From assembly GCA_023512255.1 (NCBI GenBank), contig JAILZY010000008.1, positions 3,508 through 67,507 on the forward strand: a stretch of 64,000 nt of DNA. The letters are read 5' to 3'. The notes under the pieces were generated by a model. The model did no database searches, had not been told where the DNA came from, and saw only the letters and a program-made list of their open reading frames with translations. The DNA comes from a bacterium. Its GTDB lineage: Bacteria > SZUA-182 > DTGQ01. A program made the translations under genes and the position numbers. Each line of letters opens with the position of its first letter. Position 1 is the first letter of the stretch. Positions 3,611 through 30,031 of the stretch are shown in pieces.

Positions 3611-3708
3611 GCCGTTAAATCTAATCTTTTCTCCTCTTTGAAGTGGCCCTCCTGTTTTCGATCAAATAGAACTGAAGCAGATGACCGTGGTTAGATACCA
3701 TAATTAAA

Positions 3709-4599: not shown

Positions 4600-4613
4600 A
4601 GCTTACTCTCCCT

Positions 4614-5054
4614 TCATCGGTAAAGTATCTCGTTAACCATCAGCCAATAGTGCTCGATAGAGCGGATCTTCTGATTAAATTCCTCATAATCTAATGGCTT
4701 GATAACATAGCTATTGGCATGATACTCATAGCATTTTTCCAGGTCGGCCCGATTGCTGGATGTGGTCAGGATAACTACAGGGATATGCTGCAGCTGCGGC
4801 GATTGCTTAATTCGGCGCAAGATTTCAAGCCCATTGATTTTTGGCAGATTGATATCCATAAGGATCAGATGAGGATAGACAAACTCTTCGCTCATCAATT
4901 CGCTCCTCTGATCCATATTCTGATTGAAAAGGTAATTAAACACTTCTTCTCCATCTCTGGCCACGATTAACTGATTATTAAATCCACTCTTTTTTAAAGC
5001 TCTTTCCACCAATTTAATATGAATTGGATCATCCTCAACCAATAGAATATTCAT
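4614..5054 (-). CDS. single-domain response regulator (receiver only)
   Basis: 146 aa. ILLVEDDPIH...LILMDINLPKINGLEILRRIK. Confidence 0.75.
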   Translation of the reverse strand: MNILLVEDDPIHIKLVERALKKSGFNNQLIVARDGEEVFNYLFNQNMDQRSELMSEEFVYPHLILMDINLPKINGLEILRRIKQSPQLQHIPVVILTTSSNRADLEKCYEYHANSYVIKPLDYEEFNQKIRSIEHYWLMVNEILYR

Positions 5055-17270: not shown

Positions 17271-17738
17271 TCATATATCAGACACCAGAGTGAGTCCTTT
17301 GTGGTGAAAGAATAATGAGTAAAAAAGGTTCATGAGTGTGGCAATAAAATCTTTAACATTCTGCAATGTCGAGTTTAAGATAAACATAGATCGTTCAAAA
17401 GCAGTCAAATTGCGATGATTACGCTGGAATTGAAATACCTTAGCATAATCAGGCAGGTATTCTTGGGATACCCCTCTGAAAGGGAGTATAAAGAGCAGCC
17501 AAGACAACCAAAGGCTCTCGGCACGGTTCTCATGTACATCTCCTCGAACATACTCTTTTTGGCTATGGTTGACCGTCTCGTGCTTATAGCCCGCTTTTCC
17601 CAAAAAGCTATAGCAAGAGGCAGTATCACTGTAAATGGTACTACCCTTTTCCACCCGCTTCTCAAAGGCCGCTCTCAAAGTCTCCTCTTTTACATCTGGG
17701 AGAACCTCTACCACTACTTCGCCTTGACGATTGGCCAT
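17271..17738 (-). CDS. IS1595-family transposase, C-terminal DDE part
   Basis: ISXO2-like DDE region in a different frame from the N-terminal piece. Combined length about 326 aa, equal to an intact IS1595 transposase. Confidence 0.6.
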   Translation of the reverse strand: MANRQGEVVVEVLPDVKEETLRAAFEKRVEKGSTIYSDTASCYSFLGKAGYKHETVNHSQKEYVRGDVHENRAESLWLSWLLFILPFRGVSQEYLPDYAKVFQFQRNHRNLTAFERSMFILNSTLQNVKDFIATLMNLFYSLFFHHKGLTLVSDI

Positions 17739-17786
17739 GCCCTTAATTACAGGGGAATCCTTCTGGGCCGATCCTCTTCCAGGCCC

Positions 17787-18302
17787 CTATTTCTTTCCTC
17801 TCCTGCGAGCAGGCCGATTCACGGCGATAGGATCATTCGCAGGACGACCAGCCTTATGCCCCGATGTCTGATAAATTTCATCCACTTCAATGACTCCGGA
17901 CAACCGTCTGTCTTGCTCCAATTTAATCTCCCGATTCCTTATGATCCGTACAGCTCTCAAGGCTGTGAGATAATTGCAGGGAATCTCTCGGGCAATCTGC
18001 AATGTTGTTTTCCCCAACTCTACCAGGTACATTACCAAAAACCAGGCAGACAAAGGAAGCTTGCTCTTTTCGAAGATAGTACCAGTACGGTCATTGAATT
18101 CTTTCCCACAACTATAGCAATGGTACCTATGGCACGCACTCTCCCAGGGAACAGTCCAGGGACCTGTCACCCCGCTCTGTCCACAGTATGGGCAGCGGAT
18201 AATCCCATCGGACCATCGATGGTTGCGAAGGACTCTGTAGCAGGCTCCTTCATCCAGCAAACTCTGAAATGTGTCTTTTCGACCGCAACACATGGCTTTC
18301 AT
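17787..18302 (-). CDS. IS1595-family transposase, N-terminal zinc-ribbon part
   Basis: CPYCG...CYSCGKEF zinc-ribbon transposase motif. Ends at a TAG, followed by a frame change into the DDE part. Confidence 0.65.
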   Translation of the reverse strand: MKAMCCGRKDTFQSLLDEGACYRVLRNHRWSDGIIRCPYCGQSGVTGPWTVPWESACHRYHCYSCGKEFNDRTGTIFEKSKLPLSAWFLVMYLVELGKTTLQIAREIPCNYLTALRAVRIIRNREIKLEQDRRLSGVIEVDEIYQTSGHKAGRPANDPIAVNRPARRRGKK

Positions 18303-18427
18303 AATTTATCAACTCCCTTTTCTATTTTATCACAGCGATGGCGTCTAATAAATTGAGAGCGATTTTTATACGAATCGACCTGGTACCCTATTTGGCATAA
18401 AATTAGGAGTAAAACAATGCGGCTTCG

Positions 18428-19213
18428 CTATCTCTGGGGCTTTGTTGTCTGCTTTCGCAGCATGAGCAGCTCATCGTCCAACCCGTGGCGGAGAAGATCG
18501 AGTCTGGATGACGCAGCCACGAGGCTTTCGGCGTGGACCGGCTTGATCCGGAACGGGAAGAGGCTCGGGCTGTCGATCAGATCTTTCAGCGGAGCCGAAC
18601 AGCTGGCCCGGGCGTGGAGGGACGCTTCGGCCAGCCAGGCGATCAGTCGGGAATCCTCAACAGCCAGCGTTGTCCCGGCAGAGTAAATGCCCTTTGCGCC
18701 GCTCTCCTGAAGCACGCCCCAGTCGAGGTACGAACGCAGCACGCGGCGGGCTGCTCGGGAAACGGTCTCCCGCTCGCCGTATTGCTCGCGAACCCTGCGC
18801 TGGACATGAGCCGCGGCAGCGGAGCCCTGAAGCCTCAGAAGACGGCCGGTCTGAGTGGCTACACACGACCAGAACGGGTAGACGGCCATGACCATCCCCC
18901 AGTGGATGGCTAGGCGCAAGTTATGAGGACTGAGGACTGAGTACTGAGTAGAAAGAAAGGCAAGACCGTCGTTTCGCAACGGAATGAGATCCTCTGGTGT
19001 AGTTACCCAAATCTTGCGCATGATAGAGATAATTTTATTACGATTACATCCCTTCGCCTGGCCGCCTATGGAAACCTTGTCCTTTAGTAGCTCTTGCAAG
19101 GCATCATTGATCGCAGCCTTGTCATTCCCTGCCAAGACCAGGTTGGCTGTCTGCTCAAGCCATTCCAGACGCACCCGCTGACTGAATCCGATATGGTTTC
19201 TCCTGTATGTCAT
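18428..19213 (-). CDS. hypothetical protein; candidate BrxA-like terminal gene of the BREX-like cluster
   Basis: Last gene in the same orientation, downstream of pglZ, as expected for brxA in BREX type 3. I cannot verify the DUF1819 fold by eye. Contains an in-frame partial heptad repeat (LSTQYSVLSPHNL). Confidence 0.3.
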   Translation of the reverse strand: MTYRRNHIGFSQRVRLEWLEQTANLVLAGNDKAAINDALQELLKDKVSIGGQAKGCNRNKIISIMRKIWVTTPEDLIPLRNDGLAFLSTQYSVLSPHNLRLAIHWGMVMAVYPFWSCVATQTGRLLRLQGSAAAAHVQRRVREQYGERETVSRAARRVLRSYLDWGVLQESGAKGIYSAGTTLAVEDSRLIAWLAEASLHARASCSAPLKDLIDSPSLFPFRIKPVHAESLVAASSRLDLLRHGLDDELLMLRKQTTKPQR

Positions 19214-19228
19214 TCAGAATTCCTCTTA

Positions 19229-19337
19229 CGGGTTACGAGTTATGGGTTACGAGTTACGAGTCATTAAACTCACAACTCACAACTCACAACTCTCAACTCG
19301 TAACTCATCATTACCCAGTCCTCATCACTCATCACTT
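19229..19337. repeat. palindromic array of heptanucleotide units (GTGAGTT / ACGAGTT / GGGTTAC, then GTGATGA GTGATGA GGACTG) in the pglZ-brxA intergenic spacer
   Basis: Seen directly. About 14 heptad units; the two halves are approximate reverse complements. Confidence 0.7.
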
Positions 19338-21428
19338 CCCCACGCCTCGCATCTCGATATGTACCAGAGGGACGATGAGTTCCTCGACTGAAACGCCGCC
19401 ATGGCTCACGATGCGCTGCTTTTCCTGGACAAACGTCTGCCGAGCGGGGGCCAGCAGGGCGAGGTAGTCCTCCGGGAGACCAACGGTTCCCCATTCCATC
19501 GCGGCGGGAAAGCGTTCCTTCACCTTGGCGCGTAGGGCCGCGTCGGGATAGATGCGGACCCGTTCGCCGCGCAGGTCTGCCACAGCCCCTTCGGATGGAC
19601 GACCGCAGCCTTCCGCCTCGATGTTGCCATGATCAGAGGTCAAATAAACAAGGAAGCCCCGATCCAAGAGCAGATCGAGGAGTGTGTTCAGATACGGCTG
19701 CTTGGCCCACTGGCGCACCTGGTTGTGCATCCCGGCGGTGCCCATTTCCATCCCATGCATGATCCTGTCGACCTTGTCCACGACCAGCCCGACGACCCTT
19801 GCCTTGGTATGAGAAAGCGCTTCGGAAACGCTTTCCAGGCCGCCGTCGCCCAGACCCTTGAGGTAGACGACCTCGTTTGGTGCGAGGCCCTGATCTGCCC
19901 AGAACTGCGCCCAAAGTGCTGGTTCCTTGTCCGTGGTCTGGATGCTGTTCGGGAAAAAGATGGGAGCCTTGCCGGCAAAAGTTGCCTGGCGTGAGACTGA
20001 GGTAAGCGAAGGAATCCAGGCAAAGACCGCCTGCTCCCGGAATCGCAGTCCGGGCTGCTTTGCGGCAAGTGCTTCGCGGATCACCAGCCATTGGTCCAGG
20101 GCAAGGCCGTCGATCACCAACAAAGCGAGCTTTGTTGGTGATCGCAGTGATGAGTGATGAGGACCGGGTAGTGAGTTGGCCAAAAAGAGCGGGATATGAT
20201 GAACCATGGCCGGCGGATTTGGAGGCAACTGGATAAGTCCTGCATATCGCCTCTGTATCCAAGATAGAAATCGCTGATCGACCCTTCGTGTAAGTGCATC
20301 GATACGATCATTCTGTCTTTCACTCAGTCCCCAGTCCTCATTACTCATTACTTTCAATTCCGCCCATCCGCGGGCAAAGTGGAGCCAGTCCGTGTGCTTC
20401 GCGTCCTTGGCCGGGATGGATGCCTCTAGGCTGTCGATGAGCTTGGCCAGACGACGGGACCTGTCCTCTGTGGGAGCCGCTCTAACGCCGATGCCTACCC
20501 AGGTTTTGGACAGGGTTTCCGCATACTCGTGTGGGACTGGATGCAGCACACCCTCGACGAACAGGTTGTCGATGTAGACCCGGATGTCATGGTGGTCGAA
20601 GGGAAGTTCGACAGGTCCCTTGATGGATAGACCGTAGGGCTTCTCTTCCTCACGAACGACTGCCTGTGCCGTGCCCGGCACGGCAGACAGGCCTGCCTGT
20701 TCCGAGGCTTCGGCAGGCCTGCCGGACGCCCCTTTGGCTGCCTCACGGTCAAGAAAGATCGGCCAGCGCTCTTGGAGGAACGCGAAGAAGGCTTCCCTGT
20801 CCGCCACCAGTGTCTCAAGTGGCCATTCGTCGAAGATGTTAGTCTGGCGCAGAAGCTGGATGAACCGCTCGTCGAGGATAGCAGGGATGCGTTGTCCGCG
20901 GTAGTGACGGCGCAGGAGTACCCGCAGGAGGTCCGATGGCTGTTTGATCAGCTCGGGAGCGATTTCAAAGACGTGCCGGAGGACGAACTCCTTGGTGGCG
21001 TTGTCGCTAAGCTGGCCAGGTGCATGTCGGATCGAAGCCTGATACAAGGCATCGAGATCTCCTCTGTCCAGGGCGCTCACAACCGGGCAGCTTAGGTTCG
21101 GAAAGATTTCGCCGAGGTTGAAGGAGAGTTTGCGACCGGCCTGGAGTAGATCATAGGGTAACCCGCTGAGGTCGCTTGCTTGGGAGCGCAATACCACAAC
21201 GAGGTCCGTGTGCTCCCCGCGGTCCCAGCGGGAGCGAAACTTCGATTCATAGGCGTAGCGGAACGCGATACGGTCTTCGAACGGGATCAGCTCAAAGCCA
21301 CGCTCGCGGATGCCTTCGAGAATGCCTTCTTCGAGGAGCAGTCCGTCCGGATCGGCCACTAGGGTGAGTCGAGCGACCTTCGGAGTGAATTCCTTCAGGA
21401 TTTGATCGCGCCAGCTACTCATGGCCAC
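19332..21428 (-). CDS. pglZ: PglZ-domain protein (alkaline-phosphatase superfamily; BREX/Pgl core component)
   Basis: PglZ signature LALLVIDGLALDQW...SLTSVSR...TSDHGN, about 700 aa. Confidence 0.8.
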   Translation of the reverse strand: MAMSSWRDQILKEFTPKVARLTLVADPDGLLLEEGILEGIRERGFELIPFEDRIAFRYAYESKFRSRWDRGEHTDLVVVLRSQASDLSGLPYDLLQAGRKLSFNLGEIFPNLSCPVVSALDRGDLDALYQASIRHAPGQLSDNATKEFVLRHVFEIAPELIKQPSDLLRVLLRRHYRGQRIPAILDERFIQLLRQTNIFDEWPLETLVADREAFFAFLQERWPIFLDREAAKGASGRPAEASEQAGLSAVPGTAQAVVREEEKPYGLSIKGPVELPFDHHDIRVYIDNLFVEGVLHPVPHEYAETLSKTWVGIGVRAAPTEDRSRRLAKLIDSLEASIPAKDAKHTDWLHFARGWAELKVMSNEDWGLSERQNDRIDALTRRVDQRFLSWIQRRYAGLIQLPPNPPAMVHHIPLFLANSLPGPHHSSLRSPTKLALLVIDGLALDQWLVIREALAAKQPGLRFREQAVFAWIPSLTSVSRQATFAGKAPIFFPNSIQTTDKEPALWAQFWADQGLAPNEVVYLKGLGDGGLESVSEALSHTKARVVGLVVDKVDRIMHGMEMGTAGMHNQVRQWAKQPYLNTLLDLLLDRGFLVYLTSDHGNIEAEGCGRPSEGAVADLRGERVRIYPDAALRAKVKERFPAAMEWGTVGLPEDYLALLAPARQTFVQEKQRIVSHGGVSVEELIVPLVHIEMRGVGK

Positions 21429-24369
21429 CGCCCTCCACCCGAATCACAACCAGCGGCACCATGTCGGGATAGGTGTGAGCCTTCTGATCGAGCTGCTCAT
21501 GGAAGCTCCGCTCCTCTTGGGTCAGGAGGTTCAGGCGATAGTTGCGGACCTGGGGCAGGCCAATTCGCTCGATGGTTTTGCGGCGTGCGGCAAAGGCGTA
21601 GTCTGCCTTCTCACGCTCGCGTGCGATGCGGCCCCGATGCTCTTGCAGGAGCGCTTCGTAGATAGGTTTCCCGTGTTCCTCTGCGGCGCTTTGCAGCTTT
21701 GCTAAAGAGGCTTGGGAGACCTTGGCGTCAAGGACGGACCGGACCTTTATGTTTGCTGCGAGGAGCTGATCCCACACGTGTCTGGCCGTCGGCATATAGA
21801 CCATGCCGTTGTCGGCCAAAAAGAGAGGCATGATCCGCCTGCGGCGGGTCTCCGGTCCTGGGCCCAAGGTCACGGGGCCGTCCCACCGACTCGCGACCCG
21901 CGACCCGTTACTCACAATCGAGATTTGCCACAAGGACCAGATGCCCTGGACCTCCCCGGAGAGACCGGGGATTGATACGATAGGAACCGGCTGGCCCGGC
22001 GCAAAGCGGGGAAGTCGCATGGCCAGTTCGCGAATCCTAGGCTCTTCAAGGGTAAGATGCCGGGCGGTCGGAAGCCTCTCGGCTTCCTTGCCGGTGAAGA
22101 CTACATTCTCGTAGGTCTCACCGTCGGGCCAGGTGAGGTTCCAGCTCTGGCGTCTTTTCTCGGCCTGGCCGCCGTGCGCCTTCAGGTAGCTCACGGTCAT
22201 ACGCTCGATCCAATGGGGCAAGGGGTGAGTCAGCAGCCGCTGGGCTTCGCCAGGCTCCAGATCCTCGGTCGCGCCAAGTACCGATGCGGTCGTGCGCGCC
22301 TCGCGAGCCTGCTCCTGCAAGCGGGCAATCACGCTCTCCACGGATTCCTCCACCTTTTCGGGGTTGAGGATCGCCTCGACATACATCTCGTCGAACATGT
22401 GGCTCGCCTGGGCCGAGTCAAGGACGTCGCCGGTCTTGTCAATGCCGAACTCCTCGAAGATGACGGCGAGCTTCTGCTCCAGTACTTCAAGGACCCGATG
22501 CTCAACCGATCCTTCGAGGACCAAGTTAACCGCACGCACCGTATGAGCTTGGCCGATACGATCCACCCGACCAATCCGCTGTTCGAGTCGCATCGGGTTC
22601 CAGGGGATGTCGTAGTTGATCACCACGTGGCAGAACTGGAGGTTCAAACCCTCCCCGCCGGCGTCGGTGGAGATGAGAATCCGGACATCCTTGGCGAATG
22701 CCTCCTGGGCCCGCTTACGCTCTTCCATGTCCATAGAGCCATTCAGGCAGACGACTGAAAACCCGCGCTCTGTTAGGAACCAACGCAACATCTCTTGGGT
22801 GGGAACGAACTCGGTGAACACCAGTACCTTAAGCTCAGGGTCGCTCTCCTCGGCCTGGAGGCGGTAGAGCCAGTCTAGCAGTGCCTCGGCCTTGGCGTCT
22901 GGTCCGATCTGCTCGCAGCGAGCCGCGGCCTCCAAGAGCATCTTTACCTCGGCGCGCTCGTTCTTGAGCGCCTTGAGGCGGGTGCGAAGCAACACCTCGA
23001 TCTGCTCCTGGCCGTCCAAGTCAGCCCATTCCTCTTCGGAGTTGAGGGGGAACAGGGTCAGTTGTTCCTGAGGTGCGGCGAGCGCCTCGAGCCGCCTTTC
23101 AAGCGTAATGCGGATAGCTCTTGTGCTGGAGACCACAAGGCGCTGCATCAGGATCATCAGAAAGCCGATATAGCTGCGTTTCTCCCGCATGGCCTGGTTG
23201 TAGCCTTCGCGTACGTATTCTGTGACCGCCTCGTAGAGGAGCTGCTGATCGCGGTGCCGCTCTTTCCATGAGACCGGAGCAAGCTGTGTGCGCCGCGGCT
23301 TGAACAGCGGGTTTCCCTCTACGTCAATGGCGCGGCGCTTTTCGGTGCGGATGACATGCGGTTGGACTCGCTCGCGGGTGACGCTGCTCGTGTCCGGGAA
23401 TTCCTGGGTGTCGATAAGGGAAACGAGCCGATGAAAGGCGTCGGTCTTGCCCTGGTGCGGGGTCGCCGAAAGCAGCAGGAGATATGGCGCGGACTCGGCC
23501 AGCCCCTGGCCCAGTTTGAAGCGGGCCACCTGGTCGGTGCTGCCGCCCAGACGGTGCGCTTCGTCCACGATGACCAGGTCCCAGCCGGCGGAGATCAGGT
23601 CCTCGAACCGTTCGCGGGCCGCCGCGCCGCCGCTTCCCGCCGCAGGTTTGACGGAATCCATGGGAACCACAATCTGATCTAATATCCGAAAAGGATTCTG
23701 TGCGTCTCGGCGGAGTACTGAGGACTGAGTGCTGAGGACTAAGCGGTTTTCTTCATACTCAGTCCTTAGTCCTCGTGCCTCAGTCCTGTGGATTGCCGAG
23801 ATGCGCTTCAAGGTGCGGTAGTCTTCCGTAAGAACTTGATGGAACCGTTCATTGAAGTGCATTGCCATCTCGGCAATCCACTGCGTGACCAGCCCCTTTG
23901 GGGCGATGACCAGCGTCCGCTTGACCAGTCCGCGAAGCTTAAGTTCCCGCATAATGAGCCCAGCCTCGATGGTCTTGCCCAGGCCGACCTCGTCCGCCAG
24001 GAGATAGCGCACCCGGTCGCTGCTAATGGCGCGGGATAAAGCATGGATCTGGTGAGGAAGCGGAATGACGGAGGACTCAATGGGTGCGAGCAGGACGTCC
24101 TGTGTCAGTGCATCTGCTACCCGCGCGGCCGCAGCAATGTAGGCGATATGGTCCGCCGAACCGGTACCTGCACTATCCAGTGGTTTAAGTCTGGAAGCCG
24201 CCGGGATGCGGACCACCGAGTCGCTCCCGGGCAGCCAGACATGGCAGGTCGTCTCGCCCCAGAGCGTCTGGACTTCGATGACCTGACAAAGCTGCCCGTG
24301 GTCCGGGGAATACAACCACGAATGAACACGAATGGACTCAAATAAGTTCATAGGACAAGTCTCTCCCAT
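21415..24369 (-). CDS. SNF2-family superfamily-2 helicase (BrxHII-like)
   Basis: Motif I LADEVGLGKTIEAGL; DEAH box IVDEAHRL; C-terminal helicase domain; 984 aa. Confidence 0.8.
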   Translation of the reverse strand: MGETCPMNLFESIRVHSWLYSPDHGQLCQVIEVQTLWGETTCHVWLPGSDSVVRIPAASRLKPLDSAGTGSADHIAYIAAAARVADALTQDVLLAPIESSVIPLPHQIHALSRAISSDRVRYLLADEVGLGKTIEAGLIMRELKLRGLVKRTLVIAPKGLVTQWIAEMAMHFNERFHQVLTEDYRTLKRISAIHRTEARGLRTEYEENRLVLSTQSSVLRRDAQNPFRILDQIVVPMDSVKPAAGSGGAAARERFEDLISAGWDLVIVDEAHRLGGSTDQVARFKLGQGLAESAPYLLLLSATPHQGKTDAFHRLVSLIDTQEFPDTSSVTRERVQPHVIRTEKRRAIDVEGNPLFKPRRTQLAPVSWKERHRDQQLLYEAVTEYVREGYNQAMREKRSYIGFLMILMQRLVVSSTRAIRITLERRLEALAAPQEQLTLFPLNSEEEWADLDGQEQIEVLLRTRLKALKNERAEVKMLLEAAARCEQIGPDAKAEALLDWLYRLQAEESDPELKVLVFTEFVPTQEMLRWFLTERGFSVVCLNGSMDMEERKRAQEAFAKDVRILISTDAGGEGLNLQFCHVVINYDIPWNPMRLEQRIGRVDRIGQAHTVRAVNLVLEGSVEHRVLEVLEQKLAVIFEEFGIDKTGDVLDSAQASHMFDEMYVEAILNPEKVEESVESVIARLQEQAREARTTASVLGATEDLEPGEAQRLLTHPLPHWIERMTVSYLKAHGGQAEKRRQSWNLTWPDGETYENVVFTGKEAERLPTARHLTLEEPRIRELAMRLPRFAPGQPVPIVSIPGLSGEVQGIWSLWQISIVSNGSRVASRWDGPVTLGPGPETRRRRIMPLFLADNGMVYMPTARHVWDQLLAANIKVRSVLDAKVSQASLAKLQSAAEEHGKPIYEALLQEHRGRIAREREKADYAFAARRKTIERIGLPQVRNYRLNLLTQEERSFHEQLDQKAHTYPDMVPLVVIRVEGGGHE
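23714..23790. repeat. ~77 bp imperfect-palindrome repeat element built from GAGGACT-type heptads, in-frame inside the helicase gene
   Basis: The 3' 30 nt are identical (one mismatch) to the copy at 28617-28696. Translated in-frame as RTEARGLRTEYEENRLVLSTQSSVL. Confidence 0.7.
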
Positions 24370-24731
24370 TCGAGTTTTGGCTTTTTGAAATTGAGGATAA
24401 GGCCGACTTTGAGCTGGGTAATCTTCAGGTAGTTGAGCATCTGGCCACGTTCAACATCCGTAATACGGTCAATCGTCTTGGCGTCGACCACGATCTTATC
24501 AAAGGCAATCAAATCGGGAATGTAATCGCCCACCTTGACACCTTTGTAAATTACATCGAAGCGCGGCTGCTGCTTGTAAGGGATTCCTCTCAGGCCAAAT
24601 TCAACAACGAGTGCATTTTCATACGGCTTTTCCAGCAACCCATGCCCAAGCGTATTGAACACCTCCATGGCGCAGCCAACGATCTGGAATACCTCATCTT
24701 TGAACAGTAATTTGTGTTCCTTCGTGTCCAT
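24348..24731 (-). CDS. GxxExxY-family small protein (PD-(D/E)xK nuclease-like fold)
   Basis: 127 aa. VGCAMEVFNTLG matches the GxxExxY motif, with downstream D/E-x-K-type residues. Overlaps the helicase start by 22 nt. Confidence 0.65.
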   Translation of the reverse strand: MDTKEHKLLFKDEVFQIVGCAMEVFNTLGHGLLEKPYENALVVEFGLRGIPYKQQPRFDVIYKGVKVGDYIPDLIAFDKIVVDAKTIDRITDVERGQMLNYLKITQLKVGLILNFKKPKLEWERLVL

Positions 24732-24740
24732 TCGTGGTTC

Positions 24741-25667
24741 TCACTCCTCCCCCGCTCGAGTAACCGCCTGGTCGTACCACATGAGGAGCTTGGGGTCTTT
24801 CTGGAGGACGTTCTCAGGAATTTTGCGGGCCACAGCGATGATGGTGGCATAGTCGCGCTCCTGCCATGCCTTCTTGAATCCGGCCCGGACCGCCTCAAGG
24901 CGGAAGACCTTCAGTTTCCGCTGGCTGGAAGCCAGCGCCACACTGGAAGCCAGCGCCACATATTCTTGAAATTCCTTGAGCAGGGACCGCTCGCGCAGCT
25001 TCTCCAGGTCGATGGCCTTGTTCGGGTCAGGCACATACCAGCGGTCCTTGGCTTCGCGAAGCAGTCTCGGGTCCTGAGTCTCGAGTCCCGAGTCTTCTGA
25101 TCCGTCACCCGCGACCCGCGACTCGCGACTGATCAACTCCCGCCATGTAGCACTCTGCTTCATCCACGAGACGATTTGTTTTGGAATAGGCCCCTTGCCG
25201 TCATAGCGCAAGAAGTTCTGCTCCAGCAGCTCGGAAAGCTCCAGCAGCCTCTCGTGCTTATGCCAGCCGCTGATCTCCTTGAGGAATTGGGGGTGCAGTT
25301 CCTGGAAGGTCTGTGGCTTCCGTGTGAGCTGCTGTTTGAGCCACTCGATGGCTGAGGCCTCATCCGTGACAAAGAGCGGAAGCTGCACAAAGAGCGGAAG
25401 CTGCACAAAGAGCGGAAGCTGCAGCAACTTTCGGACAGCCATCCGCTTTTTGTCATACTCAGCCACCTGCTCGGGCAGGAAGTACATCCCGTCCCGTTCT
25501 GGGAAACGCTGGGCCAGCCCAGCGTAAAACTCCCCAGCGGATATCGGAACCATCACCCCACGCTGCACATGAAAGGCCACCATGCGGTCAAAGAGTAGGT
25601 AATTCTGGCGCTCGGCGATGATTTCCAAGGTGGAGCCTGCATCTTGCAGGCTATCTTCTTGCTGCAC
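24741..25667 (-). CDS. hypothetical protein, possibly the frameshifted C-terminal portion of the PglX-like methyltransferase
   Basis: Follows methyltransferase piece 2 after 10 nt in another frame. The three pieces sum to about 1255 aa (PglX-like size). Contains two in-frame 18-bp tandem repeat arrays. Confidence 0.35.
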   Translation of the reverse strand: MQQEDSLQDAGSTLEIIAERQNYLLFDRMVAFHVQRGVMVPISAGEFYAGLAQRFPERDGMYFLPEQVAEYDKKRMAVRKLLQLPLFVQLPLFVQLPLFVTDEASAIEWLKQQLTRKPQTFQELHPQFLKEISGWHKHERLLELSELLEQNFLRYDGKGPIPKQIVSWMKQSATWRELISRESRVAGDGSEDSGLETQDPRLLREAKDRWYVPDPNKAIDLEKLRERSLLKEFQEYVALASSVALASSQRKLKVFRLEAVRAGFKKAWQERDYATIIAVARKIPENVLQKDPKLLMWYDQAVTRAGEE

Positions 25668-25677
25668 CGGCTGACTT

Positions 25678-26910
25678 TTATTTTTGTTTAGCCTGCTGGA
25701 AGCAGGCTCTACTTTGCTTAGCCTGCTGGAAGCAGAACTCAGCCTGCTGGAAGCAGGCTCTCACAAATACCGGCAGTTGCTTCAGGTGAGTGCGGACAAA
25801 GTCCCAAACGCCTTGCTCCGTCCCCGCTTCGAGCTTGAAGCGTTCCTCTAGGCCACCGTTTGGCTTGTAGCAGGAGATGATGAGGTCCTGTTTGACCGCG
25901 GATGCTGAAGTTACCTGCTTGAAAGAACCTTGCTGCTTGTCCAGCGTGCGCACATCAGCAATGACAAAGCACGCGGCCTGCAGGGCCTCCTGGATCGCGT
26001 TCCAGACCGCGTTCTTGGAGTTGTGAAATTCCACCGTCATCCAGTGGCCCGGCTTGAGCACCCGGTAGTATTCTTTGAAACATTCGGTCATGAGCTTCTG
26101 GTATTCTGGCAGCCCTTTGCCCTGGGCGGTGTTTTCGATGGCCTCAGGCTTGTTGTTGGTAAAAACCTTAAGCCACGCCTCCCAGAGGAAATTCAGCTCA
26201 GAATACATCAGGTTGCCACCAAAGGGTGGGTCGGTGAAGATGTAGTCGATGGATTCGCCTGGTATTGGGAATACTGAAGAATCACAACAACCAATGGATG
26301 CCACCTTGATCTCGCCAAACCGTGGAGCTTCATGTTTTATGAGTCTCTGCAATTTACCGGTAAGAATGTAACCGGAAGACACTTCTACCTGTTGCGAACC
26401 GACGTATAACGTGCCACTAAGATACCGGTTTACTTGCGAAAAATGAGTAGGGACATACCGCGATATTTTCGCGAATCCCAGCGCCGCATACTGTATGAAA
26501 AACAAGCTCAATTTGTGCCGTGCCTTAAATGCCTTATCATACATCCCCCCCAGCACCCACAGATTCCGTCTGGTATAGAAATGGTGCACATGGGTGATGC
26601 CGTGGGAAACTTTAGGTTGCTCCGTGTTATAGCCCTCCGGCATACGATCCGTCGGAAACCAATATGGTATTTCCATCTGCTCAATTTTTTCGATAAGTGC
26701 TAGATCGAAGGCGTCGGGCGTCTTTTCGAATCGCTGCTTTCCCACGCTATAGTTGATGAGCACCGGCACTTGTTTGGCTTGCCTGATGGTCTGATTAATA
26801 GCCTTATCAAATTTGGTAACCCAAGCCCGTTCCATTAGGCGTTTGGTGAGCAGGGTGCCGCAGTGGGGGCAGGGAAATTTGTCATGGATTTTGCCCGCTT
26901 CCTTATTCAC
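25678..26910 (-). CDS. DNA methyltransferase fragment (amino-methyltransferase catalytic motif DPPF), piece 2; in-frame continuation of 26920..28533 across a TAG
   Basis: Catalytic motif IV IFTDPPFGGN. Begins with a CPHCG half zinc ribbon. Starts at GTG three codons after the TAG of the upstream piece, in the same frame. Confidence 0.7.
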   Translation of the reverse strand: MNKEAGKIHDKFPCPHCGTLLTKRLMERAWVTKFDKAINQTIRQAKQVPVLINYSVGKQRFEKTPDAFDLALIEKIEQMEIPYWFPTDRMPEGYNTEQPKVSHGITHVHHFYTRRNLWVLGGMYDKAFKARHKLSLFFIQYAALGFAKISRYVPTHFSQVNRYLSGTLYVGSQQVEVSSGYILTGKLQRLIKHEAPRFGEIKVASIGCCDSSVFPIPGESIDYIFTDPPFGGNLMYSELNFLWEAWLKVFTNNKPEAIENTAQGKGLPEYQKLMTECFKEYYRVLKPGHWMTVEFHNSKNAVWNAIQEALQAACFVIADVRTLDKQQGSFKQVTSASAVKQDLIISCYKPNGGLEERFKLEAGTEQGVWDFVRTHLKQLPVFVRACFQQAEFCFQQAKQSRACFQQAKQK

Positions 26911-26919
26911 GGCAGCCTC

Positions 26920-28533
26920 CTAGAAGACTACCTCTTGGGTGCAGTTTGGGCAGACAAAGACATCGGACCAGACGGTATAGTTGATTTTTCCCAGTGGAGC
27001 CGGCTTCCAGCCGGCTGAAACCAATTCTTTTGCTACATACCGCCATTCATAATCCAGCGGCCGCCTTACCAGGCCAGCTTTGACCGGGTTATGGTTTACA
27101 TAAGCCAGTGTGGCCATCAGTTCTTTGCTATCGCGGATGATTCGATCATAGCTTTCCGTCTGCCATACTGTAGTCCCAGTTTTTTGCTCCAATTTATTCA
27201 CTTCATTGGCTGAATAGCTTTTAACACTGTGAAGAATCTCAGATAGATCCCAGGGTGCGTCTTTTTGTTTTTCGAGAGGTTTGGCCACGATATGAACATG
27301 ATCTGGCATAACCACCGCAGTGAACACCTTCCAGCGCTTTTGATCCCAGAATAAAATCGCATCCAGAACAATTTTCCTGGCTGGTTCACTGAGAACGCGC
27401 AGGTCGTGTGTTCTGAATGTAACAAAATAAGTGGCCCCGGGAACCTGGATGTGGGGTAGGTTATCTTTTCTGAAGGTTGATTCGTTTGTCTGAAATGGAT
27501 TGCAGGGCTCGAAGTTTATTGCTGATATAAGCCTGCTGGAAGCAGGCTCTACATGCAGGGTCTCATACATCCAGCCGCATTCGGCTTCCACTTCCTTCAG
27601 GATGCGCCTGGCTTCACGCTCAAAGGCCACGACATCCACCGGGGTGTTGTAGTTATAGGCGATGAAGGTGGCAGCAGGCGACAGGTCATTCAAGACAGCC
27701 CGCCGCGCGCCAAGTTTCGAAAATGGTTTCCAGATGGTTTTGCCGCTCTCTTCGGTTTCCTTCTGATAGATCACCCCGTCCTTATCCACCCGGTAGCCCA
27801 GCGCCTCGACCGCTGCTTTATCCCCGCACATCTGCGCTGCTACGCCGGTCATCCCTGTCCCGCAGAAGCCGTCGAAAACGATATCCCCAGGCTCGGTGTA
27901 ATGCAGGATGTAGCGCATTACGGCCTTGTGCGGCACCTTAGTGTGGTAGGAGTGGGCATTGTAGATCGGATCGTTCTTGCCCTCGCTCACATCCGCGGCA
28001 AAGGGCTCGCGGTGATAGGGTTTATCCACAAAGGCACACGAAGCCCCACCAAGAGATTTCTCTTGTTCGTACATCTTCGTGTCCTTCGTGGATTCCCAAT
28101 ACCTTACCATGTCGGCGATGAAGGGATTGGGGCAGGCGGTGTAGTAGGGTGGGTCGGATAGTGCCAGGATGTCCTCGTCGCTGCCGTGCGGGAAGCCGAC
28201 CTCGTCCTTGTAAAGGCTGAGGAGGTCTCGGGGCACGGGTCGTGAGTCGCGGGTCGATGATGCAGCGTGGGCGATGCGTCCTGCCAGGTAGCGGATTTGC
28301 TCGTCATTGCCCAGCAGCCAATGCTCGAGGGATTTCAGCCGCTGGTAAGTATCTTCGAGACTCGTAAAGGGGACGGAAAGCTTTTCTCGCATCTCCTGCA
28401 AGCCTGCTCGCAAAATGCCGAGAAAAGCTTTCTGCCGCTCTTCGTCGTTCGGGAACGTTAGCCCCAAGCAGGTCACGGGTTTATGGTGTTTGATTTCTGG
28501 TTTCTCGTTGTCGAATAGGATGTCCATGTTCAT
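26920..28533 (-). CDS. DNA methyltransferase N-terminal module fused in-frame to an IS200/IS605-type Y1 HUH transposase domain, piece 1
   Basis: Methyltransferase motifs SDPPYY (aa 127-132) and FDGFCGTGMTG (aa 220-230). Y1 transposase domain at aa ~362-495 with HUH motif PDHVHIV and catalytic-Tyr motif VWQTESYDRIIRD. C-terminal CPNC half zinc ribbon, then TAG. Confidence 0.75.
   Translation of the reverse strand: MNMDILFDNEKPEIKHHKPVTCLGLTFPNDEERQKAFLGILRAGLQEMREKLSVPFTSLEDTYQRLKSLEHWLLGNDEQIRYLAGRIAHAASSTRDSRPVPRDLLSLYKDEVGFPHGSDEDILALSDPPYYTACPNPFIADMVRYWESTKDTKMYEQEKSLGGASCAFVDKPYHREPFAADVSEGKNDPIYNAHSYHTKVPHKAVMRYILHYTEPGDIVFDGFCGTGMTGVAAQMCGDKAAVEALGYRVDKDGVIYQKETEESGKTIWKPFSKLGARRAVLNDLSPAATFIAYNYNTPVDVVAFEREARRILKEVEAECGWMYETLHVEPASSRLISAINFEPCNPFQTNESTFRKDNLPHIQVPGATYFVTFRTHDLRVLSEPARKIVLDAILFWDQKRWKVFTAVVMPDHVHIVAKPLEKQKDAPWDLSEILHSVKSYSANEVNKLEQKTGTTVWQTESYDRIIRDSKELMATLAYVNHNPVKAGLVRRPLDYEWRYVAKELVSAGWKPAPLGKINYTVWSDVFVCPNCTQEVVF
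27049..27450 (-). other. embedded IS200/IS605-family Y1 (HUH) transposase-like domain within the methyltransferase ORF
   Basis: GATYFVTFRT...PDHVHIV...TVWQTESYDRIIRD...HNPVKAGLV carries all hallmark motifs of TnpA(IS200)/RAYT. Confidence 0.7.
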
Positions 28534-29072
28534 TCCGTCCCTGGCGTAACAATTAAAAAATCGTGAACTGGATATCGTCTGTATTCTGGGTGATCCGGCG
28601 TCGCATAGACCAAATAGAGTGATGAGGACTGAGTGATTAGTGCTGAGTCTTCGGACGTCTCTGACTCAGTCCTCAGTCCTCGTGCCTCAGTCCTGATTTT
28701 GCCGCTCCAAGCCGCGACCACCGTCTTGTTCCGCGAGAGCCTCTGCAGAAGCCGCAACGGGTCCTGCTTGAGAGAGACATCGAAGAGGACCTCGATGTTG
28801 TCCAGCAAAACCACATCGGCTGCGGATGCGCCCACGATATCTGCAAGGAGGCGGGGCAACTGCAAGGCCCGCTGGCGCTCGGTGAGGTCGAGCATTCGCC
28901 GGGAAAGCTCGAGGTTGACGTTGACCAGAGGAGCCGCCGTGCGCTCATGGACATCCTGGAGAGCGGCGGTCTTGCCCGCACCAGCCGGGGCCACCAACAT
29001 GACAAGCCGGTGGTACAGCTCGGCAGCCTGGCCAATTCTCTTTATGACTCTATCGGCGAGTGGCTCCGCCAT
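28530..29072 (-). CDS. P-loop NTPase, BrxF-like (BREX type 3)
   Basis: Walker A LVAPAGAGKTAAL. Small size and first position in the cluster fit BrxF. The likely start is MAEPLADR at 29072; the track ORF extends to 29132. The C-terminus carries an in-frame repeat-element insertion. Confidence 0.5.
   Translation of the reverse strand: MAEPLADRVIKRIGQAAELYHRLVMLVAPAGAGKTAALQDVHERTAAPLVNVNLELSRRMLDLTERQRALQLPRLLADIVGASAADVVLLDNIEVLFDVSLKQDPLRLLQRLSRNKTVVAAWSGKIRTEARGLRTESETSEDSALITQSSSLYLVYATPDHPEYRRYPVHDFLIVTPGTE
28617..28696. repeat. second copy of the same palindromic heptad element, in-frame near the C-terminus of the BrxF-like gene
   Basis: Shares GATGAGGACTGAGTG...ACTCAGTCCTCAGTCCTCGTGCCTCAGTCCTG with the copy at 23714-23790. 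Encodes IRTEARGLRTESETSEDSALITQSSSL. Confidence 0.7.
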
Positions 29073-29097
29073 TAGCGATCTCTCTTCCCGAACCAAG

Positions 29098-29241
29098 CTA
29101 ATTCGCCCGCGTTTTTTCAAGCCAATGGTCAATGGCTCCTTTCTGGAAACGCCAGTGTCGGCCGATTCTCTGGGAGAGGATCTTGGCTTCCCGAACGAGC
29201 TTGTAGAGTGTTGACTTCGGCATTTTCAGGTAGGCGGCCAA
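29098..29241 (-). CDS. small excisionase/AlpA-family HTH DNA-binding protein
   Basis: Found by manual translation; not in the ORF track because under 60 aa. LSIEELAAYLKMPKSTLYKLVREAKILSQRIGRHWRFQKGAIDHWLE matches the excisionase-family HTH consensus. The start codon is uncertain: TTG at 29241 or ATG at 29223. Confidence 0.5.
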   Translation of the reverse strand: MAAYLKMPKSTLYKLVREAKILSQRIGRHWRFQKGAIDHWLEKTRAN

Positions 29242-30031
29242 CTCTTCGATGCTCAGTACATCACCTGGTTTTTTTCATCCATCAAGCGCATCTTTCTGGT
29301 CTTAACAAGCTCATCTTTCTGGTCTTAAGGCAAAGTTCGACCCAGCATGCCTCATATCAAGCTCATAATTTAAAGTTATTGGTAGTTGATGTCAAGCGCT
29401 TTTGAAGCGCAGAGGGGCCTAAACCCAACATTTGTGACACCAAGGGCACTAAGAGTTTAACCCTCTTCACCAAGATGTTCCCCATCTTTAAATTTGAAGG
29501 ACGATTTACTACCTCCTCCCTTAAACTTTAATAAATTATGAGAACATGGTTAATATTTAGTTTAACACTTTTTTCCGATAAAGTCTATTTTTCAAGGCAG
29601 ACATAAAAAGGGGGAGGAGCCGGAAAGAGGAGGGCTAGGCTTTGTGGTCATTACCTTTTTTGTTCATTACTCTTCCGGCTCTCTCCCAAGGGGAAGTAGG
29701 GAAGCGCTCCGTGCAGGGGAAAAGTTATTTGGGCAAGGGACGATCCTTGTGATCGTCCCATTTCAAGCGCACCCTGCAGGGGAAAAAAGAGCTATCTTTG
29801 ATCCTCATTTAAGAGGATCTTTGAGATGAGCGAGCTAATGTTATCTTATCCGAAATTATCATCCCCTCGGAATCCCCTGATGGTCCCGCACTGTGTGGGT
29901 GGACTGTGGCTTACTGCTTCCGGTGTCTGCTCTTAGGCCTAATATTCCTCCCTACCTAGAGATCCCGAGGGGTAGCATCTGAAATAACTATCGCTGCTCA
30001 TTATTCGGATTCTAAAAAATCCTCAACCCGG

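What the first reader, a model, noticed from the sequence alone, without database searches (positions are those of the whole stretch)
19229..19337. Heptanucleotide tandem-repeat palindrome in the pglZ-brxA intergenic spacer
Read on the minus strand, the pglZ stop is followed immediately by GTGATGA GTGATGA GGACTGG..., then ATGAGTT ACGAGTT GAGAGTT GTGAGTT GTGAGTT GTGAGTT, then its approximate reverse complement (AACTCGTAACTCGTAACCCATAACTCGTAACCC). A 7-bp unit is not a multiple of 3, so such arrays are classic substrates for slipped-strand phase variation and for forming long hairpins. Here it could act as an attenuator or phase-variable switch for the last gene of the defense operon. BREX loci are known to phase-vary.
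Basis: seen in the sequence. Interest (0 to 1): 0.6.

Follow-up and report, generated by a model that had tools for sequence, protein, structure and literature searches.

The report
Heptad-repeat hairpin splitting pglZ and brxA
The 7-base repeats and their mirror image are real, but they are one copy of a scattered family of heptad repeats that has invaded this already broken phage-defence operon, splitting two genes that overlap in almost every relative, and nothing shows that they act as an on/off switch.

Summary
The 118-nt pglZ-brxA spacer (19214-19331, minus strand) consists almost entirely of 7-nt units. Two inverted arrays fold into a 34-bp stem-loop (-39 kcal/mol, z -8.8).

The interpretation needs revising.
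- In about 145 of 154 related type 3 BREX loci, pglZ and brxA overlap (133 by ATGA). The spacer is therefore a lineage-specific insertion. Four relatives carry shorter heptad spacers of 20-38 nt, scattered across the brxA tree.
- The same heptad family (GAGKNNN) occurs about ten more times in this island, mostly in frame inside BREX genes. It does not occur in the other 51 kb of the window.
- Across 163 related loci, period-7 arrays number 99 inside BREX genes and 16 in the flanks.
- Similar heptad hairpins fill the intergenic spacers of uncultured phage contigs. Long arrays of one unit occur in filamentous cyanobacteria.
- The spacer has no terminator-like site, promoter-like site or Rfam family.
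- There are only three perfect copies. An independent assembly shows the same copy number, and comparable arrays in near-identical contigs have no indels.
- pglXI here is a pseudogene.

Best reading: an STRR-like heptad microsatellite/hairpin insertion, probably neutral or selfish. Its incidental effects would be to uncouple brxA translation and to place a long double-stranded RNA stem in the operon mRNA. Phase variation is untested and unsupported.

The parts
19332..21428 (-). pglZ (698 aa). Its stop TGA at 19334-19332 lies inside the first GTGATGA heptad.
   Evidence: PADLOC PglZ 2.1e-299 and Pfam PglZ 1.1e-24. Sequence read.
19308..19335 (-). Forward heptads GTGATGA GTGATGA GGACTGG GTAATGA. 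They carry TGA stops in several frames and GAGG (Shine-Dalgarno-like) cores. Short versions of this part are shared with relatives L082, L004, L005 and L100.
19267..19303 (-). Left arm of the stem: UUACG A GUUG A GAGUUGUG A (GUUGUGA)n, including three perfect heptads.
   Evidence: TRF array 19267-19307. Fold.
19263..19266 (-). Loop UAAU.
19226..19262 (-). Right arm: inverted heptads GACUCGU AACUCGU AACCCAU AACUCGU AACCCGUAA. With the left arm it forms 34 bp, 7 of them G.U wobble pairs that exist only in the sense-strand RNA.
   Evidence: TRF array 19226-19261.. The minus-strand RNA folds at -42.6 kcal/mol against -30.4 for the plus strand, over the same 141 nt.
19211..19227 (-). New ribosome-binding region AAGAGGA (19227-19221, its first two bases in the foot of the stem), a 7-nt spacer, then the brxA ATG (19213-19211).
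   Evidence: Read from the sequence. In relatives the Shine-Dalgarno GGAGG lies inside the pglZ 3' end and the ATG overlaps the pglZ stop.
18428..19213 (-). brxA (261 aa), the last gene of the operon. It carries an in-frame heptad array at 18924-18950 (STQYSVLSPH).
   Evidence: PADLOC BrxA 1.1e-99..
20146..20352 (-). Two in-frame heptad arrays inside pglZ: 20146-20161 and 20325-20352.
21887..21907 (-). In-frame heptad array in brxH (aa ~822-842), CGGGTCG CGGGTCG CGAGTCG.
23690..23790 (-). In-frame 30-aa insertion in brxH (aa 193-222) made of an inverted pair of heptad arrays (GGACUAA GGACUGA ... CUUAGUC CUCAGCA CUCAGUC). It folds at -35.3 kcal/mol, z -3.9.
25063..25130 (-). In-frame heptad arrays (GAGUCGC / GACUCGG types) in the C-terminal fragment of pglXI.
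28224..28256 (-). Heptad array inside a 52-aa insertion in the N-terminal fragment of pglXI.
28617..28694 (-). Inverted heptad arrays (GGACUGA... / ...CUCAGUC CUCAUCA) in the 3' part of the brxF ORF. In one unit TGA is replaced by CGA, which keeps the frame open.

Best explanation
The spacer is a lineage-specific insertion of heptanucleotide simple-sequence repeats. They are of the kind long known as STRR or 'long SSR' heptamers in cyanobacteria and some other bacteria. The insertion landed in a junction that was ancestrally a 4-nt ATGA overlap, with pglZ and brxA translationally coupled.

Proposed history (inferred):
- Growth began with a short array of forward units (GTGATGA / GGACTGA). These units carry stop codons and GAGG cores. 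Four relatives have short spacers of this kind.
- In this lineage the spacer then gained an inverted pair of arrays (GAGTTAC/GAGTTGT and its complement). Whole-unit slippage or strand-switching replication is the likely route.
- Three units of the left arm were later homogenised.

The element belongs to a family of heptad arrays and heptad hairpins that pervades this clade of type 3 BREX genes. Inside ORFs the arrays are kept in frame and purged of stops. The family is absent from the rest of the window.

I read the element as neutral or selfish DNA, tolerated in an operon that is decaying here (pglXI is a pseudogene).

Likely consequences (inferred, not shown):
- brxA is no longer translationally coupled to pglZ. 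It now depends on a new AAGAGGA ribosome-binding site at the foot of the stem.
- The polycistronic mRNA carries a 34-bp G.U-rich stem, which would be a plausible RNase III substrate or barrier to 3' exonucleases.

Copy number varies between lineages. It is not shown to vary within the population.
For: Ancestral overlap: of 154 related loci, 133 have the ATGA overlap, 7 have a 1-nt overlap and 5 apparent gaps of 29 nt are alignment artefacts. Heptad spacers occur only in the window (118 nt), L004 (31), L005 (20), L082 (24) and L100 (38).

Repeated gain or loss: the spacer-bearing loci are scattered in the brxA tree. L082 (spacer) and L083 (overlap) are 96.3% identical in brxA.

Family membership: GAGKNNN x3 has 12 hits, all between 18925 and 28688, against 0.11 expected. 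In-frame arrays in brxA, pglZ, brxH, pglXI and brxF coincide with insertions relative to homologues. Across 163 loci, period-7 arrays number 99 inside BREX against 16 in flanks of similar size. CTCA[GT]-type arrays number 49 against 0. Periods 5, 6 and 8-11 are not enriched.

Same architecture elsewhere: phage contig L172 has heptad arrays, often as inverted pairs, between a stop codon and the next Shine-Dalgarno plus ATG. Long CTCAGTC arrays occur in Coleofasciculus and Trichocoleus.

Structure: 34 bp, -39.1 kcal/mol, z -8.8.

No dedicated signal: no terminator-like or promoter-like site in the spacer and no Rfam family.

Stability: identical in independent assembly L001, and 0 indels in arrays of near-identical contig pairs.

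Decay: pglXI has a TGG>TAG nonsense codon, a RAYT+REP insertion and a frame change.

Literature: heptamers are the most abundant long SSR class in most prokaryotic genomes (Mrazek 2007 as summarised in PMC4679880 and PMC4692102). Forward TAACTGA repeats overlap stop codons and lie just upstream of start codons (PMC4679880).
Against: - Neutrality is inferred, not shown.
- All seven non-Watson-Crick positions kept in the stem are G.U pairs on the sense strand. On the other strand they would be A.C mismatches. This hints at selection on the RNA fold, but because the units were copied it amounts to only about two independent changes.
- A new Shine-Dalgarno sits at a correct distance from the ATG, and brxA and pglZ remain intact. 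Expression of brxA may therefore still be under selection.
- The strong enrichment of heptads inside BREX genes of many hosts, whose flanks lack them, is not fully explained by a neutral-junk reading.
- No read-level data were available, so population heterogeneity is untested.
Confidence: 0.6

Rival explanations
1. A selected intercistronic RNA element. The transcribed stem-loop would be cut by RNase III or would block exonucleases. This would set different stabilities for the pglZ and brxA parts of the mRNA and lower or uncouple BrxA synthesis. It would work like REP stem-loops in operons, or like the hmw1A 5'-UTR hairpin without the switching.
For: A 34-bp stem with z -8.8. All wobble positions pair only in the sense RNA: -42.6 kcal/mol against -30.4 for the antisense strand. 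A Shine-Dalgarno sits at the foot of the stem at proper spacing. The hmw1A precedent is a heptamer hairpin processed by RNase III (PMC12721329). Phage contig L172 places such hairpins systematically before Shine-Dalgarno plus ATG.
Against: The element is unique to this one locus among 154, so there is no conservation or covariation to test. Similar hairpins sit inside ORFs, where no such role applies. The operon is already inactivated in pglXI. There is no experimental evidence.
Confidence: 0.2
2. A phase-variable (contingency) switch. Slipped-strand gain or loss of heptads would change the hairpin and so turn brxA expression up or down reversibly within a population.
For: The 7-nt unit, tandem arrays and length differences at this junction among relatives. 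Heptamer SSR phase variation is documented for hmw1A (PMC8262952, PMC12721329). From general knowledge, some BREX/Pgl systems phase-vary.
Against: Only 3 perfect units, against at least 11 in natural hmw1A alleles (PMC12721329). There is no reading-frame or promoter-spacing consequence. The copy number is identical in an independent assembly that differs by 8 SNPs nearby. Comparable arrays show 0 indels between contigs 99.8-100% identical. None of 34 frame changes in related BREX genes lies at an array.
Confidence: 0.08
3. A small mobile palindromic element of MITE, REP or RPE type, inserted by a transposase. One candidate is the Y1/RAYT transposase encoded in the same island.
For: The palindromic architecture. 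Several hairpin insertions in the island, some in frame in ORFs as with Rickettsia palindromic elements. A possible GTAA on both sides of the 88-nt hairpin segment. A RAYT gene in the island. The same ~33-nt cassette CTCAGTCx3-CTCATCACTTG occurs in brxA and in brxH of relatives.
Against: The copies are not near-identical. Each site uses different 3-nt variable parts, and only the GAGK core and the 7-nt period are shared. The RAYT is flanked by its own canonical REPs (GTAG + AGCCTGCTTCCAGCAGGCT), which are unrelated to the heptads. In L172 every spacer has its own unit, which fits local repeat growth better than transposition.
Confidence: 0.09
4. An intrinsic (Rho-independent) terminator or attenuator that ends transcription before brxA.
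For: A strong stem-loop between two cistrons.
Against: No U-run follows the stem (CCCGUAAGAGGAAUUCUGAAUG). The terminator scan found no site in 19214-19331. The stem is AU/GU-rich (11 G-C/C-G pairs of 34) and is followed by a functional-looking Shine-Dalgarno and an intact brxA.
Confidence: 0.03

Closest known systems
Heptanucleotide long simple-sequence repeats / STRR of cyanobacteria (Calothrix and Nostoc STRRs; Mrazek 2007 'LSSR'; GGGAATC repeats of Xanthomonas and GGGGAYT of Nostoc, PMC4692102)
   Same: Tandem, imperfect 7-nt units with a conserved core and variable positions. Arrays are mostly 3-6 units long and intergenic, and are sometimes arranged as inverted pairs able to form stem-loops (PMC4692102 describes such inverted pairs). 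Length and sequence vary between related genomes. Long arrays of one unit found here (CTCAGTC) occur in Coleofasciculus and Trichocoleus.
   Different: The host here is an unclassified anaerobe-like lineage, not a cyanobacterium. Within the 64-kb window the arrays are confined to a horizontally acquired BREX island rather than dispersed. Many copies sit in frame inside genes.
TAACTGA direct repeats of marine Beggiatoaceae, cyanobacteria and Bacteroidetes (PMC4679880)
   Same: Heptamers ending in TGA that give stop codons in several frames. They overlap the stop codon of the upstream gene and lie just upstream of the next start codon. Reverse-orientation copies are tolerated in frame in ORFs, mostly at protein peripheries. 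Horizontal spread is suspected.
   Different: The units differ (GTGATGA / GGACTGA / GAGTTGT). Here there is a Shine-Dalgarno and an inverted array forming a long hairpin. The association is with one operon family rather than with a whole genome.
hmw1A/hmw2A 5'-UTR heptamer repeat of Haemophilus influenzae (PMC8262952, PMC12721329)
   Same: A transcribed heptamer array upstream of a gene folds into a long hairpin. It is the only characterised case where such a hairpin (cut by RNase III) sets expression. This is what the window element could work like.
   Different: hmw has at least 11 perfect ATCTTTC units pairing with a G-rich arm, and length polymorphism within populations is proven. Here there are 3 perfect units, both arms are heptad arrays, no polymorphism has been seen, and the position is intercistronic rather than in a 5'-UTR.
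REP/REPIN-RAYT systems and in-frame palindromic elements such as Rickettsia RPEs (REPINs: PMC3116915; RPEs from general knowledge)
   Same: Short palindromic intergenic elements that form mRNA stem-loops. RPE-like elements can sit in frame in ORFs. A RAYT with canonical REPs is present in the same island.
   Different: Heptad elements lack the GTAG-plus-hairpin signature and lack near-identical copies. The local REPs have a different sequence.

Membership tests
Heptanucleotide SSR / STRR-like repeats | Head-to-tail copies of a 7-nt unit, more than expected by chance | tested here: met
   TRF arrays of 5.1, 5.9 and 2.3 copies. Strict period-7 arrays number 4 against 0 in 50 shuffles. GAGKNNN x3 has 12 hits against 0.11 expected.
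Heptanucleotide SSR / STRR-like repeats | Many arrays dispersed through the host genome, mainly intergenic | tested here: not met
   Within the 64-kb window all arrays lie in the 10.7-kb BREX island and most are inside ORFs. The rest of the genome was not available.
Heptanucleotide SSR / STRR-like repeats | Same unit types found as long arrays in known heptamer-rich taxa | tested here: met
   Translated CTCAGTC arrays match small ORFs of Coleofasciculus and Trichocoleus. There are 32 IMG/VR loci with CTCAGTC x3 and 2 with GAGTTGT x3.
SSR contingency locus (phase variation) | Long perfect tract (typically many units) prone to slippage | tested here: not met
   The longest perfect run is 3 units (GTGAGTT x3); the other units are variants.
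SSR contingency locus (phase variation) | A change in tract length alters the reading frame or promoter spacing of a gene | tested here: not met
   The array is intergenic, and no promoter-like site lies in or next to it. Only the hairpin length could change.
SSR contingency locus (phase variation) | Length polymorphism among near-identical strains or within reads | tested here: inconclusive
   One independent assembly (L001) is identical in the spacer. Analogous arrays show no indels at 99.8-100% identity. Raw reads could not be examined.
Intrinsic terminator / attenuator | G+C-rich stem followed by a U-run | tested here: not met
   No terminator-like site in 19214-19331. The stem has 11 G-C/C-G pairs of 34 and is followed by GAGGAAUUCUGAAUG.
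REP/REPIN (RAYT-dependent) | GTAG-type 5' tetranucleotide plus a short imperfect palindrome, in near-identical copies, with a cognate RAYT | tested here: not met
   The island's RAYT is flanked by GTAG+AGCCTGCTTCCAGCAGGCT REPs (4 copies). The heptad hairpin shares no sequence with them.
MITE / RPE-like inserted palindromic element | Multiple near-identical copies with terminal inverted repeats and target-site duplication | tested here: inconclusive
   Inverted arms are present. A possible GTAA on both sides is too short to judge. Copies in the island share only the period and the core. A shared ~33-nt cassette in brxA and brxH of relatives hints at copying.
hmw1A-type heptamer hairpin (RNase III-dependent) | Transcribed heptamer array forming a long hairpin | tested here: met
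   In silico only: 34 bp, -39.1 kcal/mol, z -8.8 on the operon's sense strand. Transcription is inferred from its position inside the operon.
hmw1A-type heptamer hairpin (RNase III-dependent) | RNase III cleavage and repeat-number-dependent expression | not testable with these tools
   This needs RNA end mapping and reporter assays.
Type 3 BREX operon (context) | brxF, brxC/pglY, pglXI, brxHI/HII, pglZ and brxA in one operon | tested here: inconclusive
   BrxF, PglXI (in three fragments), BrxHI, PglZ and BrxA all match strongly. No brxC was seen, and pglXI is interrupted by a nonsense codon, a RAYT and a frame change.

The most novel reading that the evidence does not exclude
Heptad (GAGKNNN)n arrays and heptad hairpins may be more than leftovers of a heptamer-rich donor. 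They could be a self-propagating or functionally selected feature that travels with one clade of type 3 BREX operons across phyla.

The arrays occupy about 27 distinct in-frame sites and gene junctions. They are strongly enriched over host flanks (99 against 16; one sub-type 49 against 0). Units turn over as whole units, and the same ~33-nt cassette occurs in different proteins.

If real, this would point either to an unknown copy-and-paste or templated-repeat mechanism acting on defence genes, or to a role of the arrays in BREX expression, diversification or self-recognition.
Probability: 0.12. Interest if true: 0.65.

Novelty: new member of a known kind. Interest (0 to 1): 0.35.

Why it matters
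For this finding the main value is corrective. A feature that looked like a dedicated phase switch is one instance of a dispersed heptad-repeat family, inserted into a gene junction that overlaps in almost all relatives, in an operon whose methyltransferase is already dead.

Two side results may be useful:
- The pglZ/brxA ATGA overlap is a near-universal feature of type 3 BREX, so translational coupling is probably part of how the system is expressed.
- Period-7 repeats are specifically and strongly enriched inside this BREX gene family across many phyla, including in-frame copies.

If this enrichment is not just inheritance from a heptamer-rich donor, it gives a tractable case for the old open question of how and why bacterial heptamer repeats arise and spread.

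Tried and rejected
- Rfam scan of 17-30 kb at a permissive threshold: only two chance miRNA-hairpin hits, far below their gathering scores.
- Promoter and terminator scan: nothing in the spacer.
- Cyanobacterial origin of the window: rejected. EF-G places the host in an unclassified lineage about 60% identical to Syntrophorhabdaceae, Nitrospinota and NC10.
- Link between the heptads and the RAYT in the island: rejected, because the RAYT has its own canonical REPs.
- Frameshift alleles at in-ORF arrays as evidence of phase variation: 34 frame changes were found in related loci, none at an array. Most are in a few assemblies with several frame changes each, which I take to be indel errors.
- BREX-specificity of the CTCAGTC unit: rejected. 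32 IMG/VR loci without BREX genes carry it, and cyanobacteria carry long arrays.
- Finding the host of phage contig L172: no match in the phage collection.
- Covariation test of the hairpin: impossible, because no other locus has it.
- The first attempt at the peptide search failed because the query was under the minimum length. One batch fold failed because a sequence was over the length limit.

Full report
**1. What is at the coordinates**

On the minus strand the pglZ ORF (19332-21428) ends with TGA at 19334-19332, and brxA (18428-19213) starts with ATG at 19213-19211. PADLOC identifies both genes (PglZ 2e-299, BrxA 1e-99). It also identifies the rest of a type 3 BREX operon running from 29132 down to 18428: brxF, pglXI in three ORFs, a PD-(D/E)XK_3 ORF, brxHI, pglZ and brxA.

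The 118-nt spacer keeps a single 7-nt register. It reads GTGATGA GTGATGA GGACTGG GTAATGA, then TGAGTTA CGAGTTG AGAGTTG (TGAGTTG)x3, the loop, and the inverted array GACTCGT AACTCGT AACCCAT AACTCGT AACCCGT. An AAGAGGA follows, 7 nt before the ATG. TRF finds the three arrays, and the inverted arms are reported.

**2. Is it more than chance?**

Yes.
- Strict period-7 arrays number 4 in the window against 0 in 50 shuffles; periods 5, 6 and 8-11 give none.
- GAGKNNN x3 has 12 matches against 0.11 expected.
- The 91-nt core folds into a 34-bp stem with loop UAAU at -39.1 kcal/mol. Shuffles give -14.8 +/- 2.8, so z is -8.8.
- Seven of the pairs are G.U. They exist only in the sense transcript, which folds better (-42.6 kcal/mol) than the antisense RNA (-30.4) or the DNA strand (-15.2).

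**3. The junction in relatives**

BrxA homologues at 60-92% identity occur in many phyla and even in Methanothrix. I fetched 164 related loci. Of the 154 that hold both genes, 133 have a 4-nt ATGA overlap of the pglZ stop and the brxA start. Seven have a 1-nt overlap, and five apparent 29-nt gaps are alignment artefacts with the same ATGA. Heptad spacers occur in only five loci: the window (118 nt), L100 (38), L004 (31), L082 (24) and L005 (20).

The short spacers share the forward units GTGATGA, GGACTGA and GGAATGA and a GAGGAA just before the ATG. Only the window has the inverted arrays.

In a brxA tree the five loci are scattered within one clade. L082 (spacer) and L083 (overlap) are 96.3% identical in brxA. 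Heptads have therefore been gained or lost at this junction several times, and the window carries the largest expansion.

**4. The element is not specific to this junction**

Period-7 arrays also lie at 18924-18950 (brxA), 20146-20161 and 20325-20352 (pglZ), 21887-21907 and 23713-23740 (brxH), 25063-25130 and 28224-28256 (pglXI), and 28617-28694 (brxF). All are read in frame. Most coincide with insertions relative to homologues.

Some are themselves inverted pairs that fold: the brxH aa 193-222 insertion gives -35.3 kcal/mol, z -3.9. Three heptads make 21 nt and encode the same cyclic peptide in every frame. In the orientation that carries TGA, the in-ORF copies have variant units (CGA, TGG) that keep the frame open. 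No such array lies in the other 51 kb of the window.

The island is 55-61% G+C against 42-50% for its surroundings. EF-G places the host in an unclassified lineage.

**5. The family across loci**

- In 163 non-redundant loci, period-7 arrays number 99 inside BREX genes (878 kb) and 16 in flanks (934 kb).
- CTCA[GT]-type arrays number 49 against 0.
- Periods 5, 6 and 8-11 are not enriched inside BREX.
- Arrays occupy about 27 sites in the proteins, often with different units at the same site in different loci.
- The brxA array is shared by a whole clade. It differs between members by whole-unit replacements (CTCAGTC against CTCATCA) at constant length.
- The cassette CTCAGTCx3-CTCATCACTTG (TQSSVLSPHHLS) also occurs at brxH aa ~60 in some loci.

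**6. The same kind of repeat outside BREX**

CTCAGTC x3 occurs in 32 IMG/VR loci that have no BREX genes. Phage contig L172 (GP7 capsid, 56% G+C) has heptad arrays, often inverted pairs, in the intergenic spacers I read (3050-4960). They sit between the stop codon and the next Shine-Dalgarno plus ATG. This is the same architecture as the window spacer, and its units include GACTCGT, AACCCAT and AACCCGT. Long CTCAGTC arrays translate into small hypothetical proteins of Coleofasciculus and Trichocoleus.

The literature describes related cases:
- Heptamers as the most abundant long SSR class, with polymerase slippage as the proposed cause (Mrazek 2007, as summarised in PMC4679880 and PMC4692102).
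- Inverted heptamer pairs in Xanthomonas (PMC4692102).
- TAACTGA repeats that overlap stop codons, precede start codons and are tolerated in reverse orientation in ORFs (PMC4679880).

**7. Tests of a switch or attenuator**

- No terminator-like or promoter-like site lies in the spacer, and there is no Rfam family.
- The longest perfect run is three units.
- The independent Logan assembly of SRR15214128 (L001) starts inside the spacer at 19329. It is identical through the arrays while differing at 8 positions downstream.
- Contig pairs 99.8-100% identical that span about 18 comparable arrays show no indels.
- None of 34 frame changes in related BREX genes lies at an array.

The closest working precedent is hmw1A of H. 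influenzae. There a heptamer array in the 5'-UTR forms a long hairpin cut by RNase III. It relies on at least 11 perfect repeats and on demonstrated population polymorphism (PMC12721329).

**8. State of the operon**

pglXI is a pseudogene here. It has TGG>TAG at 26920-26922 and an in-frame RAYT gene flanked by inverted canonical REPs at 26994-27552. It also has two further REPs with a frame change at 25690-25763. No brxC was seen. The island also carries a private 18-nt tandem repeat. This is a locus accumulating repeats, probably under relaxed selection.

**9. Conclusion**

The spacer is an STRR-like heptad microsatellite with an inverted duplication. It was inserted into an ancestrally overlapping, translationally coupled junction. 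Shown:
- the anatomy;
- the predicted fold;
- the ancestral overlap;
- membership of the heptad family;
- the lack of terminator and promoter signals;
- the absence of any observed copy-number variation.

Inferred:
- growth by whole-unit slippage or strand switching;
- loss of translational coupling, with reliance on the new Shine-Dalgarno;
- possible RNase III or exonuclease effects on the mRNA;
- neutrality.

Phase variation remains untested at read level and is unlikely on present evidence. The unexplained residue is the strong, period-7-specific enrichment of such arrays inside this BREX gene family across hosts.

Noticed in passing
window 24741-28533 (minus strand): pglXI is split into three ORFs and looks like a pseudogene. 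It has a TGG>TAG nonsense codon at 26920-26922 (VVFW in relative L084, VVF* here). It also has a frame change at about 25680-25760, caused by inserted palindromes.
   Followed up: yes
window 26994-27552, 25690-25763: A REP-associated tyrosine transposase (Y1_Tnp/RAYT) gene is inserted in frame inside pglXI. It is flanked by inverted canonical REPs (GTAG + AGCCTGCTTCCAGCAGGCT). Two more REP copies lie 1.3 kb downstream. The window has four copies in total, all in the BREX island.
   Followed up: partly
window 24348-24731; L084 4188-4571 and 7564-7941: A small PD-(D/E)XK_3 ORF sits between pglXI and brxH. In relative L084, 23S_rRNA_IVP (four-helix-bundle) ORFs occupy the pglXI/brxH and brxH/pglZ junctions. 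Small selfish-looking ORFs seem to colonise the junctions of this operon family.
   Followed up: no
154 related loci (L002-L165), pglZ/brxA junction: The pglZ stop and brxA start overlap as ATGA, preceded by GGAGGGG, in 133 of 154 type 3 BREX loci from many phyla. This near-universal arrangement implies translational coupling.
   Followed up: yes
163 related loci; window 18924-28694: Period-7 tandem arrays are strongly and specifically enriched inside type 3 BREX genes (99 inside against 16 in flanks of similar size; CTCA[GT]-type 49 against 0). Periods 5, 6 and 8-11 are not. The arrays occupy about 27 in-frame sites.
   Followed up: partly
brxA aa 88-98 (window 18924-18950); brxH aa ~60 in L084, L154, L149, L157, L104: The same ~33-nt cassette CTCAGTCx3-CTCATCACTTG, encoding TQSSVLSPHHLS, is present in two different BREX proteins. 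This suggests copying between sites. In brxH it replaces, rather than adds to, the ancestral 84 nt.
   Followed up: partly
L172 (IMG/VR UViG_3300041955_001923), e.g. 3090-3160, 4092-4238, 4700-4930: An uncultured phage contig (GP7 major capsid, 56% G+C) carries a different heptad array, often an inverted pair, in nearly every intergenic spacer just upstream of the Shine-Dalgarno and start codon.
   Followed up: partly
window 25369-25423: A perfect 18-nt tandem repeat (3.1 copies) encodes QLPLFV x3 inside the pglXI C-terminal fragment. Relatives have a single copy.
   Followed up: no
window 18400-29200 against the rest: The BREX island is 55-61% G+C against 42-50% around it. BrxA homologues at 80-92% identity occur in Acidobacteriota, Spirochaetota, Planctomycetota, Nitrospirota, Desulfobacterota and Synergistota, and more distant ones (65-71%) in Methanothrix. 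This is a recently and widely transferred system.
   Followed up: partly
window 28530-29132 and upstream: brxF is followed directly by pglXI, and no brxC/pglY-like gene (about 1200 aa) is present anywhere in the window. The brxF ORF runs through inverted heptad arrays and overlaps the pglXI start.
   Followed up: no
window 17787-18302; L001: An IS1595-type zinc-ribbon transposase fragment lies just downstream of brxA. All 8 differences between the window and the independent assembly L001 lie in the 17328-18212 stretch that contains it, which suggests strain-level variation or multiple IS copies.
   Followed up: no
window 29283-29328: A 23-nt direct repeat (2 copies, 95% identical) lies just upstream of brxF, at the edge of the island. 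It was not examined.
   Followed up: no
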